This document shows positions 6,984 to 49,800 of a DNA stretch of 52,140 nucleotides, piece after piece. Source of the DNA: a virus (taxonomy: Duplodnaviria; Heunggongvirae; Uroviricota; Caudoviricetes); IMG/VR virus record IMGVR_UViG_3300023181_000001, positions 94,509-146,648 of that record; one strand, written 5' to 3'. The notes beneath the pieces are model-generated. The model saw only the letters and a program-made list of their open reading frames with translations, searched no databases and had not been told where the DNA came from. Numbering within the stretch: position 1 is the stretch's first letter; the number at the start of each line of letters is the position of its first letter. Both the position numbers and the translations under genes were made by a program.

Positions 6984-7877
6984 TTAAGTATTTTTTAACT
7001 TTTCTATGATTTCTTCTATCTTATCCTGCTCTTTTAAAAAGAACAGTCCTTTATAAGGTACTTTATTATTTACTGCTTTTATTATACAAACGGCCAGAAG
7101 TTTGTTTAAGGCTACCCCCATTCTTTCTTTTTTAAACCTCGAAGTTATTGGAAAATTATTTTCTTGAGTCTGTGACCAATCTTCAATATCTGGGGCACTT
7201 CTAAACTCTCTTAAAAAGTTACCTTCTAAATCATACACAAATATATTAGGGCATTTTTCTCTCGCCCTTTCAGAATTATCTTTTCTTGCTTGCAAAGATT
7301 TTTCAGTTACTGTTTTTGGTACGCCTTTTAAATAACTATAATCTACTTCGGTAAAATTCTTACCTTTATTCCAAGGAATAGTCCTTAATCTATAGTTTAC
7401 AATTTTTATATATTTTTCAGGTACTTCTTCTATACTGATTTCACCATTCTTAACTTTAAAATAATATTCTATACCCTTATTAGTTGTTTTAGTGAAAGTC
7501 GCCGTTCTTTTCTCAATTGTTTCTTTAGACATATTGGGTGTGCCAGATGCTAAAGGATTTATATTGTAACAATCCTCACATTTATCTAAATAAACTTGTT
7601 CTACTTCAAGAGTGCAACATTTGTCAACAACTTCTAGAATATTAAACTCAAAGTTATCTTCTCCATACTTGTTCCACGCTCTTTGTAAGTGTGCATTTTT
7701 ATGTGTGTTACTTTTTAATAAGCACCTATGATGCTCAATCCTTTTTGTAAAAGACATAGTAGTAGAACCTATATATTTTTTACCATCAACTTTGTTTCTA
7801 ATTTCGTAAACTCCTGAGTCTTTAAATTCCTCTGTGTAAATGTTTTGCATAATATTTTTAAATGCGAAAACCCACAT
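6984..7877 (-). CDS. free-standing GIY-YIG homing endonuclease (I-TevI/Seg-like; NUMOD1-like C-terminus); start may be MQNIY at 7850
   Basis: GVYEIRNKVDGKKYIGS, KRIEHH, HLQRAWNKYGEDNFEF, EQVYLD and YNIN catalytic-domain motifs; IFVYDLEGNFLREFRS. Confidence 0.9.
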   Translation of the reverse strand: MWVFAFKNIMQNIYTEEFKDSGVYEIRNKVDGKKYIGSTTMSFTKRIEHHRCLLKSNTHKNAHLQRAWNKYGEDNFEFNILEVVDKCCTLEVEQVYLDKCEDCYNINPLASGTPNMSKETIEKRTATFTKTTNKGIEYYFKVKNGEISIEEVPEKYIKIVNYRLRTIPWNKGKNFTEVDYSYLKGVPKTVTEKSLQARKDNSERAREKCPNIFVYDLEGNFLREFRSAPDIEDWSQTQENNFPITSRFKKERMGVALNKLLAVCIIKAVNNKVPYKGLFFLKEQDKIEEIIEKLKNT

Positions 7878-7979
7878 CTAATCCTTAACAAGCATCCGAC
7901 CTCTTGTTAATTCATTAAATATGGGTTTAAGTATATTTTTAGTTTTTGTTAATTATGGTCGGAATAATTATTTAACAAA
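7868..7979 (-). ncRNA. unassigned structured RNA: two hairpins with complementary 7-nt loops
   Basis: Hairpin A 7868-7928 (15 bp with two G-U pairs, plus 8 bp; loop AGGUCGGAUG) and hairpin B 7945-7979 (loop UCCGACC). Confidence 0.55.
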
Positions 7980-8011
7980 CTTACAAAAAGTATTTTATAA
8001 AAGCAAATATA
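7976..8011 (-). promoter_or_regulatory. tandem putative -7 elements TAAGTTTG (7976-7983) and TATATTTG (8004-8011)
   Basis: TAnnTTTG matches between polA and the GIY-YIG gene. Confidence 0.55.
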
Positions 8012-8030: not shown

Positions 8031-10442
8031 TTAATGACATTCATACCAATTTCGACCTACAATCCATTCATACCCTAAAGGTACATTAAGCTTTAAAAGT
8101 TCCTCTGTCTTTCTCATACCATATTCAATAGCTAAAGATACAATATTAGGCGGACAAACATACCAAACTCTCCCTTCTCCTACAGCACTTAACTGCCCCT
8201 CTCCTTTCCAGTTCTTTATAAAATCTTGTGCTTGCTCCTTGCTTTCAAACATTTCAAATTTAACTAAATCTTTTTTAACATATAATTGGCACTCGTCATG
8301 ATAAGCAATCATCTCACACACAGAGGGTTGAGCTACAAAAGGGTCGATATTATACCCCAACTCTTCTATATATTGCATAGAAAAAACATTAACGTATTTT
8401 GCACAAATCACACCACCGCTTTGAAAGATATTGTTCAAAAGACTGTGACGACTTCTTGTTTTAATAAGTCTGCCATCAATTCCTGGCACTGAGTCTTGTC
8501 CATTTGCATCCCAATATTTCTCCACTCCTTCTTTTAATTCTTTCAGTGCTAAAAGGGAATCCCAAAAACCTTCAAAAATTTCTGTGGCTCTCTCTTGTGT
8601 AACACCTAACATTTTCTTCACTTTAGGTATTTTTCCACCGTATACGAGCATGTAATTTGTACTCTTTGCGGAATCTCTATCTAGTCCTAATTTAATTCCT
8701 GTCAAGGTATGGATGTCATTTGGCTTAGATGCTAGCAATGTTTCCGCTAACTCTTGCCCTCCTGTATATTTCCAGCAATAGTGGCCTTGAATTCGGGCTT
8801 CTAAACTACTAAAATCATAGGCTTGCTGTAGTACTCCCTCTCCACATCCAAACAAACTTCTCATTTCTTTTCCGTAAATTGAACTCGCCCGCGCTATATT
8901 GGCAATTCCGATATGTCGATAGCGATTACTTGAAGCTCCTATTTCAATAGCTGGTGTTGGTACCCTACCGTCAACTTCTCTGTACATAGAAAGAAACCCT
9001 GATTCAGGAAAATCGGTATCAAAGTCCATTTCTTCTACATCACCTCCTGCAATTGAAGACTTCCTATGCTTATAAGTTAAGAACATTGCAAAGTCATTTG
9101 CAAACTCTACTTTCTCTCCTAGTTTTATCAAGTTTGGACATAAATCCTTCTCGATCCCAACTTTTACCTTGGGAGATGTGGGTAATCTTACAGGGAAATC
9201 TTCTTTTAAGCGGTCAAAAACTTTCTTTTTTAAATCTTCTATGTTCTTTGCTTTGAAGTTCTCATAAGCTATCTTAAGTCTGAGTTTTTTATATTTACCC
9301 TCGCTAGTTTCTTTTAACCACCTTTCTACTGCTGTTTCTCTTTTTTCTATTGAAAGGCTCTGCTTTTTACTGTCTTTTGTAAAATCTCTTTCCGCCCATT
9401 CTATTGGTTCCCAATTATAAACATCAATCAAAGTGCTCTTAACATGGTCGAGATTACTGATATCTGCTTCCATGTGAGTTTTTAGGGGGAGGGTGTAAGG
9501 TAATTCATGTCTTTTACCCTCAAAATTTATATAGTATTTCTTATCTTCTTCTGAAACTGTTTCTTCTATTATTGCCCCGATTCTTTGTGTAAACTTTACA
9601 ATATGTGTTGAAGGCTTACCACTTTTTAAAAATTGCGTTGCTGGTGGAGTAAAATGACCTAAATCTGTCTTACCCATAGGTTTTGGCGGTAAGATCGGAT
9701 TAACTTTGTTTTGAAGCTCTTCCATTTTCTGAGTTAAGTCTTCAACGCACTTAATGGCCAGGTCTTTGTCGAACCAAAAGCCTAAAGATTCTCTTCTTAC
9801 TGCTTGGTCAGCTAATTTATTTTCAAGTTTTATTGCTTGTGACCAGCCTTTATAATCCCCCATTTCTTCTACAAGAGCAAAAAATGTATCTTTATTTACA
9901 TTTGTATCTTGGATGCAATATGTCAGAGTTTCTGGAAAATAACATTTGAATTCCGCTCCTTTTGGAGAATTTTTATCGATATAACCTTTTTCAATACAGA
10001 TTCCTCTGAAATCACTTTTGAAATTGGACGTTCTTTGTCCCCAACTTTCGAGAGAGTGGTTTCCAAACCTATCTGGATTTAGAAGTCGTGACACTATCAA
10101 AGTATCTACAAAAATAACTTCCTTTCCAAATAAAGTATCAGGTTGATTCAAGTAACCAATAGTGTAATCTAATAATCCAAACAAACGTAAAACAATGAAA
10201 TCGAACTTAATCCCATTATGGGCTATTAGATGAGTGCAATTCTTTAAAGCGTCTCTAAGGTTATTTTTTGTGAGTTTGTCCTTGTCAAGCGTTATAATTT
10301 CGTTTGTGTGGATGTTACGTAATACAATACACCAAAGTCTTGCATCGGCTTTTAATTTATATGGAAATTGACTGAAATCTAACATATTTGATAGCAAGTC
10401 GTTCGACTCCAAATCCAAAACCCAACCTTCCATATTCTCCAT
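8031..10442 (-). CDS. polA: family A DNA polymerase (T7-type) with 3'-5' exonuclease
   Basis: ExoI VLDLES, ExoII AHNGIKFD, ExoIII YCIQDT; motif A YDFSSLEAR, motif B RDSAKSTNYMLVYG, motif C YHDE; C-terminus GRNWYECH. Confidence 0.95.
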   Translation of the reverse strand: MENMEGWVLDLESNDLLSNMLDFSQFPYKLKADARLWCIVLRNIHTNEIITLDKDKLTKNNLRDALKNCTHLIAHNGIKFDFIVLRLFGLLDYTIGYLNQPDTLFGKEVIFVDTLIVSRLLNPDRFGNHSLESWGQRTSNFKSDFRGICIEKGYIDKNSPKGAEFKCYFPETLTYCIQDTNVNKDTFFALVEEMGDYKGWSQAIKLENKLADQAVRRESLGFWFDKDLAIKCVEDLTQKMEELQNKVNPILPPKPMGKTDLGHFTPPATQFLKSGKPSTHIVKFTQRIGAIIEETVSEEDKKYYINFEGKRHELPYTLPLKTHMEADISNLDHVKSTLIDVYNWEPIEWAERDFTKDSKKQSLSIEKRETAVERWLKETSEGKYKKLRLKIAYENFKAKNIEDLKKKVFDRLKEDFPVRLPTSPKVKVGIEKDLCPNLIKLGEKVEFANDFAMFLTYKHRKSSIAGGDVEEMDFDTDFPESGFLSMYREVDGRVPTPAIEIGASSNRYRHIGIANIARASSIYGKEMRSLFGCGEGVLQQAYDFSSLEARIQGHYCWKYTGGQELAETLLASKPNDIHTLTGIKLGLDRDSAKSTNYMLVYGGKIPKVKKMLGVTQERATEIFEGFWDSLLALKELKEGVEKYWDANGQDSVPGIDGRLIKTRSRHSLLNNIFQSGGVICAKYVNVFSMQYIEELGYNIDPFVAQPSVCEMIAYHDECQLYVKKDLVKFEMFESKEQAQDFIKNWKGEGQLSAVGEGRVWYVCPPNIVSLAIEYGMRKTEELLKLNVPLGYEWIVGRNWYECH

Positions 10443-28345: not shown

Positions 28346-28712
28346 TATTTTTATTTATTTCAATTGCTTTATTGGCTCCGTATAAACCTTCTTGTAATAT
28401 TTTATTTAGGTTTTCTATCCTCGATTCATAAAAATTCTTAGTATGCGCAGTTACCATCTCTAATAAATATTTAAAATCATCGCCAGTATAAGTACTATAA
28501 TAACCTATCTCACCTAGTCTCATATCTATTATTCCTGTCGGTTCCGTAAAAGAATTTGCTATTTCCACACATATTGAAATTGCGCCATCTACTATATTTA
28601 TACTGTATTCACTATTAGCAACTATTAATTCAAACCCACCTTTTTTAGTTCTCAATTTTTTAAGCACCAAAAGAACTTTCGCTTTTTCCTCTTTTCGTCT
28701 TTTTAAATTCAT
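28335..28712 (-). CDS. hypothetical protein (inserted island)
   Basis: Co-oriented ORF overlapping the 765-aa start by 11 nt. Confidence 0.55.
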   Translation of the reverse strand: MNLKRRKEEKAKVLLVLKKLRTKKGGFELIVANSEYSINIVDGAISICVEIANSFTEPTGIIDMRLGEIGYYSTYTGDDFKYLLEMVTAHTKNFYESRIENLNKILQEGLYGANKAIEINKNSEL

Positions 28713-46800: not shown

Positions 46801-49800
46801 CATATTGGTCAGGAACATAGTTTTTCATAGTTACATAGGGACTTGCAATATCAGGAGAAAATTCTCTCTTATCACAGCCTATAGTACTAGAAGTAGCTTT
46901 TGAAGAAGTGTTTTTTATATTGGAGTTATCTATGCTTTGGTATTGTTGAGAGTACTCCAAAAAATTATCACCTAAAGCCAGAAATACCGATCCCTCTCTT
47001 TGGAAATTGTTTATGTTGTAAGTCTCTCCCGCTTTTGTATCGACTAGAGAGAAATCCCCGTCTGGTAGATACCTTGATATGCTTAAAGGTTTGAAATAAT
47101 TTGCATCATCCCTGTTTACTATAATATTGTTATACTTTCCTAAACTGTACCCATAATAAGCAAAGTTGTAAGAAGCTCCGATATCTCTAAAAGACTTAAT
47201 CCAGTCATATCTGTATTGTCCTGACTTTACAAACCCGCTCGTGGCGTAGGCAACTCCTGCTAGTATGGCACCCACAAGTCCCAAACTTGTACCTACAACA
47301 AACCCTGCCATAAAGAACTGGCTTGAAGTAAGCTCTGCTACACTGATAGCCGTTTCTAACACAACCTCTGTAACTGCTAGAGTGGTTGCTGTATTTCTGG
47401 CTTTTCTTCCTAATATTGTCCATTTAGGATGGTCTTCTAATTCAGTGAAATTACTTTTTGCCGTTCCTTTTAAGTACCCCTGTATAGAAATTTCTGTACC
47501 AAGCTGAGTTTTTGTATGTAGCAGGTCAGGAGAAATATAAGTAAATTTATTATTTTTTTCTCCTTGATAAGGGTGCTGTATTACATTACTTGCACTCCTA
47601 TTAGGCTTATGGTACAGATCTCCTCCTAAATCATTATAAGGAAAATTAGAATAAAGATACTGTTTGTCATCCCTGTCATATTGATACATATCAAACATTA
47701 ATCCATTTGAAATAACACTCTTACTGTAAGTGTTATCCCCTCTCAAAATTTCAAATCCGAAAACATTGTCGGCTTCCTTCTGAGTCATAAGATTATTTCT
47801 AACTGCAATTTTTAACATACCTTCAACCACTCTAGCATCCAAATGCACTCCTAGAGGATATATGAAACTGTCTGTAAAAGACGGCATCTCTTGATTTGCA
47901 ATAAAAGGTGCTACTCTATTATCTGGCATTTTTGGGTGTCGTATTTTTGCACATCGAAAATCCGCACCTTCTTTAAGCGTATAGTAGTTGTCGTCGTCTA
48001 ACCCTTCTGCATAATACTGTTCAAACTTAGTTCTCAAATCAGAAGGTATATCGGAAGGCTCAATTTTTAATCCGCTACTGTCGTATAAGTCCTTATTGTC
48101 AGGATATGTCCTAGTACTTTCCCAAAAAGAAAATTCCCCTTGTTTGTAAGGTATAGGTTCGCATTCTAAATTATCGGGTAGAAAATAAGTACATGAAGTA
48201 GAGTATTTCTCAGATTTGTCAAGAATTATTGAAGTCCATGAAACTGTTGCTCTATCATAGGTTACGTCTCTTGTCACTACAGCAAAACATCCGTCTGGTG
48301 GGGCTGTTCTAAACTTTACTACGGGCGTTGCTTCTGGGTCGTATCCGTTTTCTTGGGTGTCATCTTTTGGAAGTCCCAAAGTTTGATTTACCCATGGATC
48401 TATAGCTACAAACATATCTCCCGAAGCAAAGGGATTTACTAGAGGAATTACAGTATTATTAATTATTACTATATCGTTCTGAGAAGTTCCATCCAGGTCT
48501 CCTGTCAGGTTGTCTACATTAACTGTGAGGGTTATAGCCGATCTTAAACTTATAATCCCATCTTCTATCGATATTCTTATTCCATTTTCTTCCAGCTCTG
48601 TCCCGTTTTCGAGCATAAAATTGTTAATGGTAGTGTCTATATCTGTGTCAAAAACCATAGGGTAAGACTCTAGATTTATTATGACGCTTGCAGAACCCGA
48701 AGTTCCTGTAATGACCAATCTAGAATCCGTATTTCTATAACTTTCTATTCTATATTTTAACCCTTGTGTTCTTATGGGAATAATCTCACCATAGAAGGCT
48801 TGTGTATCAGAACACTTGTGAAACAGGGAAACCCTCACTTTTTGAGTAGGATTTACTGTTGTTTCTATTATGTCGTCGTTTGCGGGAGCCTCTTGAGTCT
48901 TAGATACTTCTAATATAAATTTATTTCTATTAAGGGTATTTGCTTTAAACCATAAAGCCCCTGACTGAATTTTTTCTCCAAAACCATTTACGCCTGTAAG
49001 TTCTGTTAAGTATGCCTCTTTAGCAGTTTCCAATTCTGCTCTTGTTTCTCCGCCTCTGTAGTTTATAAAATATCTTTGGGCATTATTATTTATTGCGGAA
49101 ATGTTGATGATATCGCTGGCAGAAGAGCATCCTTCATTGGTAGAATTATAACTTCTTTTCAATACAGTCTTTCTTGTGTTGTCAGGTATTCCTAAACGCA
49201 TCATATAGAGATATTCAAAAGTGGTATCCCTTACATAACCTCCTGCCGAACTGGCTTCATAAAAGTTACAAGAGCTGCTAGGAAAATCTTCGTAGCTTTC
49301 TGGAAATGCTGATTCTTCTCTATTGACAAATTCTCCTTCAACAGTATTAATAGAAACTTTAAATTCATCTAGAGTAGGTGTATCGCATACAGTCTCTTCC
49401 ACCTCTGTTTGATTAGACCATGATACTGGCGTATTTCCAGTAGCTGTAAAGACCGTGCCTTCTGTGGTAAAACCTACATTTGAGAAATCATCTCCTGGTT
49501 GCAAATCGTAGATAATGTAATTTTTCCCTTCTGTCAAATTTCCTGAAGTGGAAACTGTTCCAAAAACAGGGATGCAATGAGATTCAGGGTAAGGATTTAA
49601 AAGATAAGGTGTTATTTCAGGGATGATTACGCTAGGATTATCCGCTATGTAATCCTTTAGGTTGTCAAACTCTGTATTTAACTCTATCTCTATTGTGTTT
49701 GCACTAATTTCATCAACTCCTCGAACTATACACACTCTAGATTCAGCTTGTATTACCTCTGTACCGCTGGTAGCTATACTGCAAGTTTTTTCTACTTTTG

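What the first reader, a model, noticed from the sequence alone, without database searches (positions are those of the whole stretch)
7850..7983. Double-hairpin RNA with exactly complementary (kissing) loops upstream of the GIY-YIG nuclease
Seen on the minus strand, 5' to 3': hairpin B (7979-7945; stem ...AAUUAU / AUAAUU...) with loop UCCGACC (7963-7957); an A-rich linker; hairpin A (7928-7868) with a 15-bp outer stem AAACCCAUAUUUAAU/AUUAGAUGUGGGUUU, a small internal loop, an 8-bp stem UUAACAAG/CUUGUUAA and loop AGGUCGGAUG. UCCGACC and GGUCGGA form 7 Watson-Crick pairs (5 G-C) in otherwise very AT-rich sequence. The two G-U wobbles work only in the minus-sense RNA. A -7 element (7976-7983) overlaps the 5' end, hairpin A ends in GGGUUUU, and it buries the ATG at 7877. 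Known: T4-type homing endonuclease genes use start-sequestering hairpins, but those are simple stems. Inference: a pseudoknotted cis-regulator, or a discrete ~105-nt RNA partnered with the nuclease. I do not recognise it as any known riboswitch or ribozyme.
Basis: partly seen in the sequence, partly recalled or inferred. Interest (0 to 1): 0.75.

Follow-up and report, generated by a model that had tools for sequence, protein, structure and literature searches.

The report
Kissing-loop leader RNA before homing nuclease
A roughly 105-base folded RNA with its own promoter sits in front of a selfish nuclease gene in this flavobacterial phage; its two hairpin loops pair with each other, relatives keep that pairing with different letters, and no described RNA family matches it, though its job is still inferred.

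Summary
On the minus strand, 7970-7868 holds hairpin B (loop UCCGACC) and a 61-nt hairpin A (loop GGUCGGA).

The loop-loop pairing is under selection. I fetched ten relatives of the GIY-YIG gene, chosen only by protein similarity. All ten have the same architecture with 6-10 bp of loop complementarity. Across 16 elements there are 13 different pairing sequences.

The unit has five parts:
- a Bacteroidota promoter (TTTG, 20 nt, TAAGTTTG)
- hairpin B at the predicted 5' end
- an A-rich linker
- hairpin A with an internal loop
- a U-tract, then an unpaired stretch of about 17 nt before the start codon

The conserved start codon is ATG 7850, not the buried ATG 7877. The "start-sequestering" reading therefore fails.

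The element is not specific to the nuclease:
- A second copy in this genome precedes a primase-like gene.
- A relative carries a copy with no gene behind it.
- One leader type precedes two unrelated GIY-YIG genes.

Rfam gives no match and I found no paper describing it.

My best reading (about 50%) is a promoter-proximal attenuator that ends most transcripts at hairpin A and so keeps the downstream gene low. A discrete small RNA remains possible.

This scan noted the same leader class before on other phage genomes.

The parts
8004..8007 (-). -33 promoter element TTTG
   Evidence: Sequence. It sits 20 nt upstream of the -7 box. (A)TTTG is at the same offset in 14 of 16 family members. The consensus TTTG/TAnnTTTG is taken from PMC6847099.
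7976..7983 (-). -7 promoter element TAAGTTTG. The predicted transcription start is about 7971.
   Evidence: A TAnnTTTG-type box is present in all 16 elements: TATATTGC in two and TATATTTA in one. In F. johnsoniae the G of the box is at -5 (PMC6847099). The G at -9 in this copy departs from the refined TAHHTTTG consensus.
7950..7970 (-). Hairpin B: 7-bp A-U stem with 7-nt loop UCCGACC (7963-7957), at the predicted 5' end of the transcript
   Evidence: Folds. An equivalent 5' hairpin is present in relatives. In the six-sequence alignment the B helix is 95% paired, with 2 pairs changed on both sides.
7929..7949 (-). A-rich single-stranded linker (21 nt)
   Evidence: Unpaired in all folds. Relatives have an A/U-rich linker. 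The automated parse gave lengths from 2 to 40 nt, mostly 13-36, and failed for one sequence.
7868..7928 (-). Hairpin A: outer stem 7928-7914/7882-7868, internal loop GAA/GG, inner stem 7910-7903/7892-7885, loop 7902-7893 holding GGUCGGA (7901-7895)
   Evidence: Stems covary in relatives: 9 pairs changed on both sides. An internal loop lies 3-8 bp below the apical loop in nearly all members.
7860..7870 (-). U-tract (UUUU CGCA UUU) directly after hairpin A; terminator-like
   Evidence: A run of at least 3 U, and at least 4 in 15 of 16, follows the stem in all 16 elements. Two columns of this U-run (T107, T108) are the only invariant columns of the 14-sequence alignment. A strict E. coli-type scanner did not call it.
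6984..7850 (-). GIY-YIG homing-endonuclease gene (288 aa from ATG 7850)
   Evidence: Pfam GIY-YIG, E = 1e-7. 173 homologues were found, and the gene call of 288 aa is P0003. The N-terminus MQNIYTEEF is conserved.
8031..10442 (-). Family A DNA polymerase, complete C-terminus (...VGRNWYECH*)
   Evidence: Pfam DNA_pol_A. 50% identity to the polymerase of Cellulophaga phage phi4:1. All fetched relatives of the nuclease lie just after a PolA gene.

Best explanation
This is a promoter-proximal structured leader RNA, a "kissing double hairpin", belonging to a mobile gene cassette.

Proposed mechanism:
1. Transcription starts about 5 nt after the -7 box, so hairpin B forms at the very 5' end.
2. When the apical loop of hairpin A emerges about 60 nt later, it pairs with the B loop (7 bp here).
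3. The 3' arm then completes the long hairpin A, which is followed by a U-tract.
4. Most transcripts, including read-through from the polymerase gene, end there as a compact RNA of about 105 nt.
5. Only transcripts that read through carry the nuclease ORF. Its start codon lies in an unstructured A/U-rich stretch 17 nt downstream.

The leader therefore keeps expression of the downstream (potentially harmful) gene low. The kissing contact locks the fold and probably sets the stability or termination efficiency.

Shown: the structure, its conservation and covariation, the promoter and U-tract conservation, and the position of the start codon.

Inferred: the transcription start, termination at hairpin A, the intramolecular nature of the kiss, and the effect on expression.
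For: Structure and covariation:
- The window folds as two hairpins.
- Ten relatives were chosen only by GIY-YIG similarity (58-81%) and contig length. All ten have the same architecture with complementary loops.
- Sixteen elements carry 13 different kissing sequences of 6-10 bp, 4-6 of them G-C, in DNA of about 30% GC, with duplex energies of -8 to -15 kcal/mol.
- Cognate complementarity is 6-9 nt; non-cognate is mean 3.5, maximum 6, n = 228.
- In the six-sequence alignment the kissing helix is 100% paired, with two G-C to A-U double changes. No shuffle reaches the observed pairing or covariation score.
- G-U pairs are frequent, which indicates RNA on this strand.

Promoter and terminator features:
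- The promoter is conserved in all 16, with hairpin B starting at +1/+2 in several copies.
- A U-tract follows hairpin A in all 16.
- The 8-20 nt between hairpin A and the ATG leaves no room for another promoter.
- The start region is unpaired, with A at -3. Flavobacteria use such starts without a Shine-Dalgarno sequence (PMC6847099).

Specificity of the descriptor:
- In this genome exactly two elements were found.
- It gave 3 spurious hits among 759 hairpins in phi4:1 and none among 410 in unrelated loci.

Other support:
- In 16 of 16 nascent-RNA folds, the B-loop/A-loop helix is the most stable pairing before the 3' arm exists.
- Terminators and hairpins that limit homing-endonuclease expression are known in T4-type phages (PMC2988022).
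Against: - There are no expression data.
- The U-tract here has only 4 U before an interruption. Hairpin A is unusually long, with a 10-nt loop, and a strict terminator scanner did not call it.
- A promoter placed upstream of its own terminator suggests the short RNA itself may be the product.
- One relative (L177) has a copy with no ORF for about 720 nt downstream.
- Termination does not obviously need a kissing loop, so the role of the best-supported feature remains unexplained.
- The -7 box of this copy has G at -9, which is rare in F. johnsoniae promoters.
Confidence: 0.5

Rival explanations
1. The main product is a discrete, stable small RNA of about 105 nt, made from promoter to terminator. 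It acts in trans, and the downstream gene is only a passenger on rare read-through.
For: - A conserved promoter lies immediately upstream of a terminator-like hairpin in all 16 elements.
- L177 holds a standalone copy with no ORF behind it.
- The element occurs in front of unrelated genes: GIY-YIG, a second GIY-YIG family, and a primase-like gene.
- Hairpin B sits at the 5' end, as in RNAs stabilised by a terminal stem-loop.
Against: - In 15 of 16 cases a gene starts 8-20 nt after the U-tract (about 36 nt in L190, about 3 nt in the second own-genome copy), with no promoter of its own, so the RNA is at least also a leader.
- No conserved single-stranded seed exists for a trans target. The only conserved complementarity is internal.
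- The kissing 7-mer has no other match in the 52-kb window.
Confidence: 0.22
2. It is an RNA stability or processing element rather than a terminator. The long, imperfect hairpin A (19-27 bp with an internal loop) would be an RNase III-type processing site, or the closed fold would act as a 5' cap-like protector setting mRNA half-life. The U-run would be incidental.
For: - Hairpin A spans about two helical turns with a purine-rich or U-U internal loop in nearly all members, as in phage T7 RNase III sites (the T7 comparison is from my own knowledge).
- Hairpin B begins at +1/+2.
Against: A U-run directly after the stem in 16 of 16 elements is not needed for RNase III and is unlikely by chance. 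No processing data exist.
Confidence: 0.13
3. It is a translational mask in the T4 style: hairpin A hides the nuclease start codon.
For: ATG 7877, preceded by AAGGA, lies inside the 3' arm of hairpin A. T4-type endonuclease genes use such masks (PMC2988022). A related leader type (L045/L047/L062) pairs its loop with a sequence next to the start codon.
Against: - The conserved start is ATG 7850, 17 nt beyond the hairpin and unpaired.
- The extension from ATG 7877 has no counterpart in the gene calls or conserved N-termini of the relatives.
- Bacteroidota mRNAs lack Shine-Dalgarno sequences (PMC6847099).
Confidence: 0.05
4. It is a DNA-level feature: an inverted repeat serving as a protein operator, a cruciform or the endonuclease target. 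On this reading it is not an RNA.
For: The kissing sequences form an inverted repeat about 60 bp apart next to a promoter. I-TevI is known to bind an operator at its own promoter (PMC2988022).
Against: - The complementary 6-10-mers always sit exactly in the loops of two hairpins.
- The stems contain many G-U pairs, which are valid only on this strand.
- The sequences differ in nearly every lineage, which a protein site would not tolerate.
Confidence: 0.03

Closest known systems
Regulatory hairpins and terminators of T4-family homing-endonuclease genes (I-TevI/II/III, segB, mobE; seg43(25) of Aeromonas phage 25)
   Same: A structured RNA lies directly upstream of a free-standing or intron-encoded endonuclease gene and is thought to keep expression low. 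The mobE and segF genes carry intrinsic terminators. seg43(25) has a very stable hairpin just upstream of, but not covering, the ribosome site (PMC2988022).
   Different: Those are single stems, usually covering the Shine-Dalgarno sequence, with a late promoter inside the hairpin. Here the promoter lies upstream of two hairpins joined by a covarying loop-loop helix, the start codon is free, and the host group does not use Shine-Dalgarno sequences.
Lambda PR'-6S RNA-tR' unit and HK022 put RNA (promoter-proximal short RNA or two-hairpin RNA governing read-through)
   Same: A promoter is followed within about 100-200 nt by a terminator, so that downstream genes depend on read-through. The put element is a two-stem-loop nascent RNA acting in cis. 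This comparison rests on my own knowledge, not on a tool result.
   Different: No Q- or N-like factor or binding site has been identified. The put hairpins do not kiss and are not themselves terminators. There is no sequence similarity.
phi29 pRNA and other loop-loop (kissing) RNAs: ColE1 RNA I/II, and the lysine and purine riboswitch loop contacts
   Same: Two loops have Watson-Crick complementarity that covaries between relatives without sequence conservation. In riboswitches a bend in one helix lets the loops meet.
   Different: pRNA loops pair between molecules and serve DNA packaging. Riboswitches have conserved ligand pockets. Here nothing is conserved except the shape and the U-tract, and whether the kiss is within or between molecules is untested.
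P1/P7 c4 and P4 CI antisense RNAs (Rfam C4)
   Same: These are phage RNAs processed from a leader. Their loop sequences pair with complementary sites in the same operon, with lineage-specific covarying specificity.
   Different: There is no Rfam C4 match. The partner here is another hairpin loop in the same leader, not the ribosome site of the downstream gene.
Kissing-loop leader class noted earlier by this scan in other Bacteroidota-phage genomes (e1-3458546, e1-3450722, e1-1835446, e1-5421105)
   Same: A promoter, two hairpins with 7-nt complementary loops that differ in every copy, placed in front of homing endonucleases and replication genes, with no Rfam match.
   Different: Those are unpublished AI notes. 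One of them proposes ribosome-site hiding, which does not apply to this copy.

Membership tests
T4-type RBS/start-sequestering hairpin of homing-endonuclease genes | The hairpin pairs the ribosome-binding site or the start codon actually used | tested here: not met
   The conserved start, ATG 7850, is 17 nt 3' of hairpin A and unpaired. Only the non-conserved ATG 7877 is buried.
T4-type RBS/start-sequestering hairpin of homing-endonuclease genes | A late promoter is embedded in the hairpin, so that late transcripts lack the 5' arm | tested here: not met
   The only promoter-like element (TTTG, 20 nt, TAAGTTTG) lies upstream of both hairpins.
Intrinsic (Rho-independent) terminator | A stable stem-loop is followed immediately by a U-tract | tested here: met
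   Hairpin A is about -22 kcal/mol. A U-run of at least 3 (at least 4 in 15 of 16) follows the stem in all 16 elements. Two columns of the U-run are the only invariant ones.
Intrinsic (Rho-independent) terminator | Canonical geometry: a short GC-rich stem, a 3-8 nt loop, and at least 5 U in 8 | tested here: not met
   The consensus scanner does not call it. The stem is 23 bp with an internal loop, the loop is 10 nt, and there are 4 U before the interruption.
Any Rfam 15 family (including group I intron, C4, ribozymes, riboswitches) | A covariance-model match | tested here: not met
   There is no match at E <= 10 overlapping 7850-7990, and none at E <= 0.1 in the loci holding the second copy and the L177 copy.
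Group I intron carrying the endonuclease | The host gene is interrupted, with exons flanking the element | tested here: not met
   The polymerase ORF is complete to its canonical C-terminus and stop codon.
Riboswitch or self-cleaving ribozyme | Conserved core nucleotides in loops or junctions | tested here: not met
   Only two invariant columns exist, both in the U-tract, among 14 aligned elements. Loops and stems vary freely.
Type III toxin-antitoxin (ToxIN-like) RNA-protein pair | Tandem repeats of the RNA unit upstream of the protein gene, separated by a terminator | tested here: not met
   There is a single unit and no tandem repetition in the 180-nt spacer. The protein is a GIY-YIG DNA nuclease.
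phi29-type pRNA | Two loops with covarying complementarity | tested here: met
phi29-type pRNA | Intermolecular loop pairing that builds a ring on the packaging motor | not testable with these tools
   This needs native gels or structural work. The genomic position, between replication genes, does not suggest packaging.
K-turn or tandem G-A hinge in hairpin A | GA on both strands of the internal loop, with a 3-nt bulge | tested here: inconclusive
   Internal loops include GAA/GG, UGA/GAU, UGAA/GGAU and UUGA/GAUU. About half the members have GA on both strands, while four members have UU/UU instead. No consistent 3-nt bulge is seen.
Kissing double-hairpin leader of Bacteroidota phages (class noted by this scan; unpublished) | Promoter, 5' hairpin, A-rich linker, long hairpin with U-tract, loops complementary over 6-10 nt, and a gene start within about 20 nt | tested here: met

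The most novel reading that the evidence does not exclude
The two complementary loops are a copy-specific address. This would feed back on termination or read-through.

Each cassette would then be an autoregulated unit that does not cross-talk with other cassettes in the same cell or in a co-infecting phage. That would explain why nearly every lineage, and both copies in this genome, use a different loop pair. It would also explain why leaders are exchanged as modules between nuclease genes.
Probability: 0.12. Interest if true: 0.85.

Novelty: new variant of a known kind. Interest (0 to 1): 0.68.

Why it matters
Homing endonucleases are selfish genes that must be expressed sparingly. How they are restrained is known mainly from T4-type coliphages, where simple hairpins hide the ribosome site.

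Here a different solution appears in phages of Flavobacteriia, hosts that do not use Shine-Dalgarno sequences. It is a portable promoter-plus-leader module whose defining feature is a covarying loop-loop contact.

It is a well-supported but undescribed structured RNA family:
- 13 distinct kissing pairs in 16 elements
- no Rfam match
- no paper found

It travels between unrelated phages and between unrelated genes.

If the contact tunes termination or RNA stability, it is a compact, easily reprogrammed regulatory part for Bacteroidota, where genetic tools are scarce. If the contact works between molecules, it would be a new kind of self-addressed RNA control.

Tried and rejected
- **Rfam** at permissive thresholds on the window region and on two other loci gave nothing relevant.
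- **MAFFT alignments** of all elements were structurally wrong. Only a six-sequence subset aligned well.
- **Covariance model R1**, built from that subset, was too sequence-specific. The window scored only 17.9 bits (E = 2.3), and the second own-genome copy, L020 and the L177 copy were missed. It cannot be used for discovery, so I used a script descriptor instead.
- **Cellulophaga phage phi4:1**, the nearest isolate (polymerase 50% identical), has no nuclease after its polymerase and no element anywhere in 146 kb.
- **Other Bacteroidota phage GIY-YIG genes**: those of crAss-like phages and Flavobacterium phage FpV4 have short plain leaders, with no element.
- **Relatives of the primase-like protein** behind the second copy were not found in viral contigs.
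- **A decayed nuclease gene** behind the standalone L177 copy was not found.
- **An extended alternative duplex** between the B and A regions is absent. Only the loop cores are complementary, so this is a true kiss and not a hidden long helix.
- **The similarity of the B outer stem and A inner stem** in the window (UUGUUAA/UUAACAA) is not seen in relatives, so I treat it as coincidence.
No expression evidence could be gathered and read laying was not used.
- **One protein context** had no DNA available (P0008) and one was not on record (P0024).

Full report
**Context**

The window is the last 52 kb of a complete 146.6-kb phage genome with direct terminal repeats from IMG/VR. It is about 33% GC, and every large ORF in the window is on the minus strand.

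Its family A DNA polymerase is 50% identical to that of Cellulophaga phages phi4:1 and phi17:2. The host is therefore probably a member of the Flavobacteriia.

The finding lies in the 180-nt spacer between two genes:
- the polymerase (8031-10442, complete to ...VGRNWYECH*)
- a GIY-YIG homing-endonuclease gene (Pfam E = 1e-7)

**Observation**

- Hairpin A (7928-7868) has a 15-bp outer stem with two U-G wobbles, an internal loop GAA/GG, an 8-bp inner stem and the loop AGGUCGGAUG.
- Hairpin B is a 7-bp all-A-U stem (7970-7950) around the loop UCCGACC.
- The two loops can form 7 Watson-Crick pairs, 5 of them G-C.
- The region folds better than its shuffles (z = -2.9).
- The 7-mer count in the window is not significant by itself. 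The case rests on comparison with relatives.

**The promoter**

TAAGTTTG (7983-7976) lies 20 nt downstream of TTTG (8007-8004). This is the Bacteroidota -33/-7 promoter.

In F. johnsoniae the G of the -7 box is at position -5 (PMC6847099). That places the predicted transcription start at about 7971, one base before hairpin B.

The same -33/-7 arrangement, at the same offsets, precedes every family member.

**The start codon**

The ORF can be read from ATG 7877, inside hairpin A. However, the database gene call is 288 aa, starting at ATG 7850 (P0003). All relatives begin with the conserved MQNIYTEEF-type N-terminus at that position.

The real start therefore lies 17 nt beyond the hairpin, in an unpaired A/U-rich stretch with A at -3. 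Flavobacterial ribosomes use this kind of start without a Shine-Dalgarno sequence. The "buried start" idea is not supported.

**Comparative evidence**

Two relatives found through the flanking genes showed the same layout with different loop sequences:
- L004: AUACGAGC/GCUCGUAU
- L003: GUGCGAG/CUCGCAC

I then searched the large protein collection and found 173 homologues. I fetched the context of every one I could among 12 chosen only by identity rank and contig length. Ten were retrievable.

All ten lie just after a PolA gene. All ten spacers hold a promoter, hairpin B, hairpin A and a U-tract with complementary loops. New pairs include:
- AGCAUCCUAC/GUAGGAUGCU (10 bp)
- GGGCGG/CCGCCC
- UGGCGG/CCGCCA
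- UGGCAG/CUGCCA
- GGUCAAGC/GCUUGACC
- GUUGAGG/CCUCAAC

Three further elements came from a script descriptor (terminator-like hairpin plus at least 7 nt of loop complement upstream):
- L020, in a phage with no PolA hit, before a GIY-YIG gene 42% identical to this one (GGUCUGAA/UUCAGACC)
- a second copy in this same genome at about 28.5 kb, outside the window (UGGGAGGUU/AACCUCCCA), before a 397-aa BT4734-like/PriCT primase-like gene
- a copy in a close relative (L177; CCAUCAC/GUGAUGG) with no ORF of 35 aa or more for about 720 nt downstream

**Statistics**

- Cognate B-region/A-loop complementarity is 6-9 nt in 16 of 16 elements. The A loop was defined by unconstrained folding. In 228 non-cognate combinations the mean is 3.5 and the maximum 6.
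- On the six sequences that MAFFT aligns well, the kissing helix is 100% paired, with two G-C to A-U double changes.
- All four helices together have 13 pairs changed on both sides.
- No shuffle of 500 reaches the observed pairing or covariation score, and sliding the partner columns collapses pairing to about 40%.
- The descriptor is specific: 3 spurious hits among 759 hairpins in phi4:1, none among 410 in unrelated loci, and exactly the two real elements in this genome when a promoter box is also required.
- Frequent G-U pairs show the structure belongs to the RNA of this strand.

**Anatomy across the family**

- Hairpin B begins at or within a few bases of the predicted +1 in several copies. 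It is 24-27 nt further downstream in the second own-genome copy and the L177 copy.
- The linker is A/U-rich.
- The loop-to-loop distance is 57-70 nt, with one exception of 43 nt.
- Hairpin A always has a non-Watson-Crick internal loop 3-8 bp below the apical loop. It is purine-rich, often with GA on both strands, or UU/UU. This could be the hinge that lets the apex fold back onto hairpin B.
- A run of at least 3 U (at least 4 in 15 of 16) follows the stem in every case. Two columns of the U-tract are the only invariant ones.
- The ATG follows 8-20 nt later in most copies.
- A semi-conserved UUUAUA(A/C)AAGCC box lies between the U-tract and the ATG.
- In simulated nascent RNAs lacking the 3' arm, the B-loop/A-loop helix is the most stable pairing in 16 of 16. 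The contact can therefore form before hairpin A closes.

**Evolution**

The leader behaves as a module.
- L190 and L196 share a leader (78% over 114 nt) and nuclease (77%), although their polymerases are only 24% identical. The cassette moves between phage lineages.
- L003 and L190 share a leader (82% over 124 nt) and polymerase (79%) but have unrelated GIY-YIG genes (20%).
- L004 and L199 have 89% identical nucleases but different kissing pairs.

The element is absent from several related contexts:
- phi4:1, which has no nuclease after its polymerase
- GIY-YIG genes of crAss-like phages and FpV4
- the relative at 45% identity (L005)

**What it is not**

- It matches no Rfam family.
- It is not a group I intron, because the polymerase is intact.
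- It is not a riboswitch or ribozyme, because there is no conserved core.
- It is not a ToxI-like repeat array.
- It is not a T4-type start mask, because the start codon is free and the promoter is upstream rather than inside the hairpin.

Full-text searches found no description of it.

The closest published parallels are the hairpins and terminators that restrain T4-family endonuclease genes. These include a very stable hairpin just upstream of, but not covering, the ribosome site of seg43(25) (PMC2988022).

**Mechanism**

I commit, at about 50%, to a promoter-proximal attenuator. Transcripts from the cassette promoter, and read-through from the polymerase gene, mostly end at hairpin A. Only read-through reaches the freely translatable nuclease ORF. 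The kissing contact locks the fold and tunes termination or RNA stability.

The weak point is that termination does not need a kiss. A promoter feeding straight into a terminator, together with the standalone L177 copy, keeps a functional small RNA in play (about 22%). A processing or stability element is a third option (about 13%).

**Earlier notes of this scan**

The scan had already described the same leader class on other phage genomes. My results agree on the architecture, the copy-specific loops and the lack of an Rfam match.

- a conservation test free of selection bias (10 of 10)
- the free start codon
- the module exchange between genes and phages
- the internal-loop hinge
- a copy with no gene behind it

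Noticed in passing
Own genome, G000:C1 about 28,500-28,640 (+), = L085 1991-2141 (outside the window): A second kissing double-hairpin element in the same phage. It has a promoter (TTTG, then TACTTTTG), a 9-bp loop pair UGGGAGGUU/AACCUCCCA and a U-tract, then the ATG of a 397-aa BT4734-like_N/PriCT primase-like gene.
   Followed up: yes
L177 8400-8535 and 8530-9258: A family member in a relative whose polymerase is 70% identical, with no ORF of 35 aa or more for about 720 nt downstream. The ORF-free stretch is GC-richer and folds strongly (-80 kcal/mol over 400 nt). No nuclease remnant and no Rfam hit were found there.
   Followed up: partly
L045, L047, L062, about 1900-2010: In gut-phage contigs the GIY-YIG leader is a three-way structure. 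Its apical hairpin shares 12-13 nt with the hairpin A apex of L003/L190. Its partner (UGCGAGU) lies downstream of the U-tract, about 15 nt before the ATG. This variant would mask the start region.
   Followed up: partly
Own genome, G000:C1 about 49,400-49,480 (+): A strong GC-rich terminator hairpin has the loop UGUUGCU, complementary to AGCAACA at codons 3-5 of the next gene. It may be the same theme or chance.
   Followed up: no
Window 7875-7877: The in-frame ATG preceded by AAGGA, inside hairpin A, gives a 297-aa reading. Relatives and the database gene call use ATG 7850 (288 aa).
   Followed up: yes
Window 7851-7866 and the equivalent positions in L004 and L190-L199: A semi-conserved UUUAUA(A/C)AAGCC-like box lies between the U-tract and the start codon. 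In some copies it can form a small third hairpin overlapping the U-tract.
   Followed up: no
L002 5407 onward: In the relative whose polymerase is 70% identical, a different ORF starts 13 nt after the polymerase stop, with no leader. It resembles a homing endonuclease (...YGVGFIGEGEY...). The site after the polymerase appears to be a hotspot for such genes.
   Followed up: no
L179-L181 (Kolpuevirus and Kehishuvirus crAss-like phages): In L179 a GIY-YIG ORF sits between two annotated pieces of the replicative DNA helicase gene, an intron-like arrangement. L180 and L181 have a helicase gene directly downstream of the GIY-YIG ORF. Only a plain short leader follows the TAnnTTTG box.
   Followed up: no
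Locus of P0008 (no DNA available), and L195 2751-3566: Some relatives carry a GmrSD_N-family gene shortly after the nuclease. In the P0008 context the upstream polymerase has a faint intein-splicing hit.
   Followed up: no
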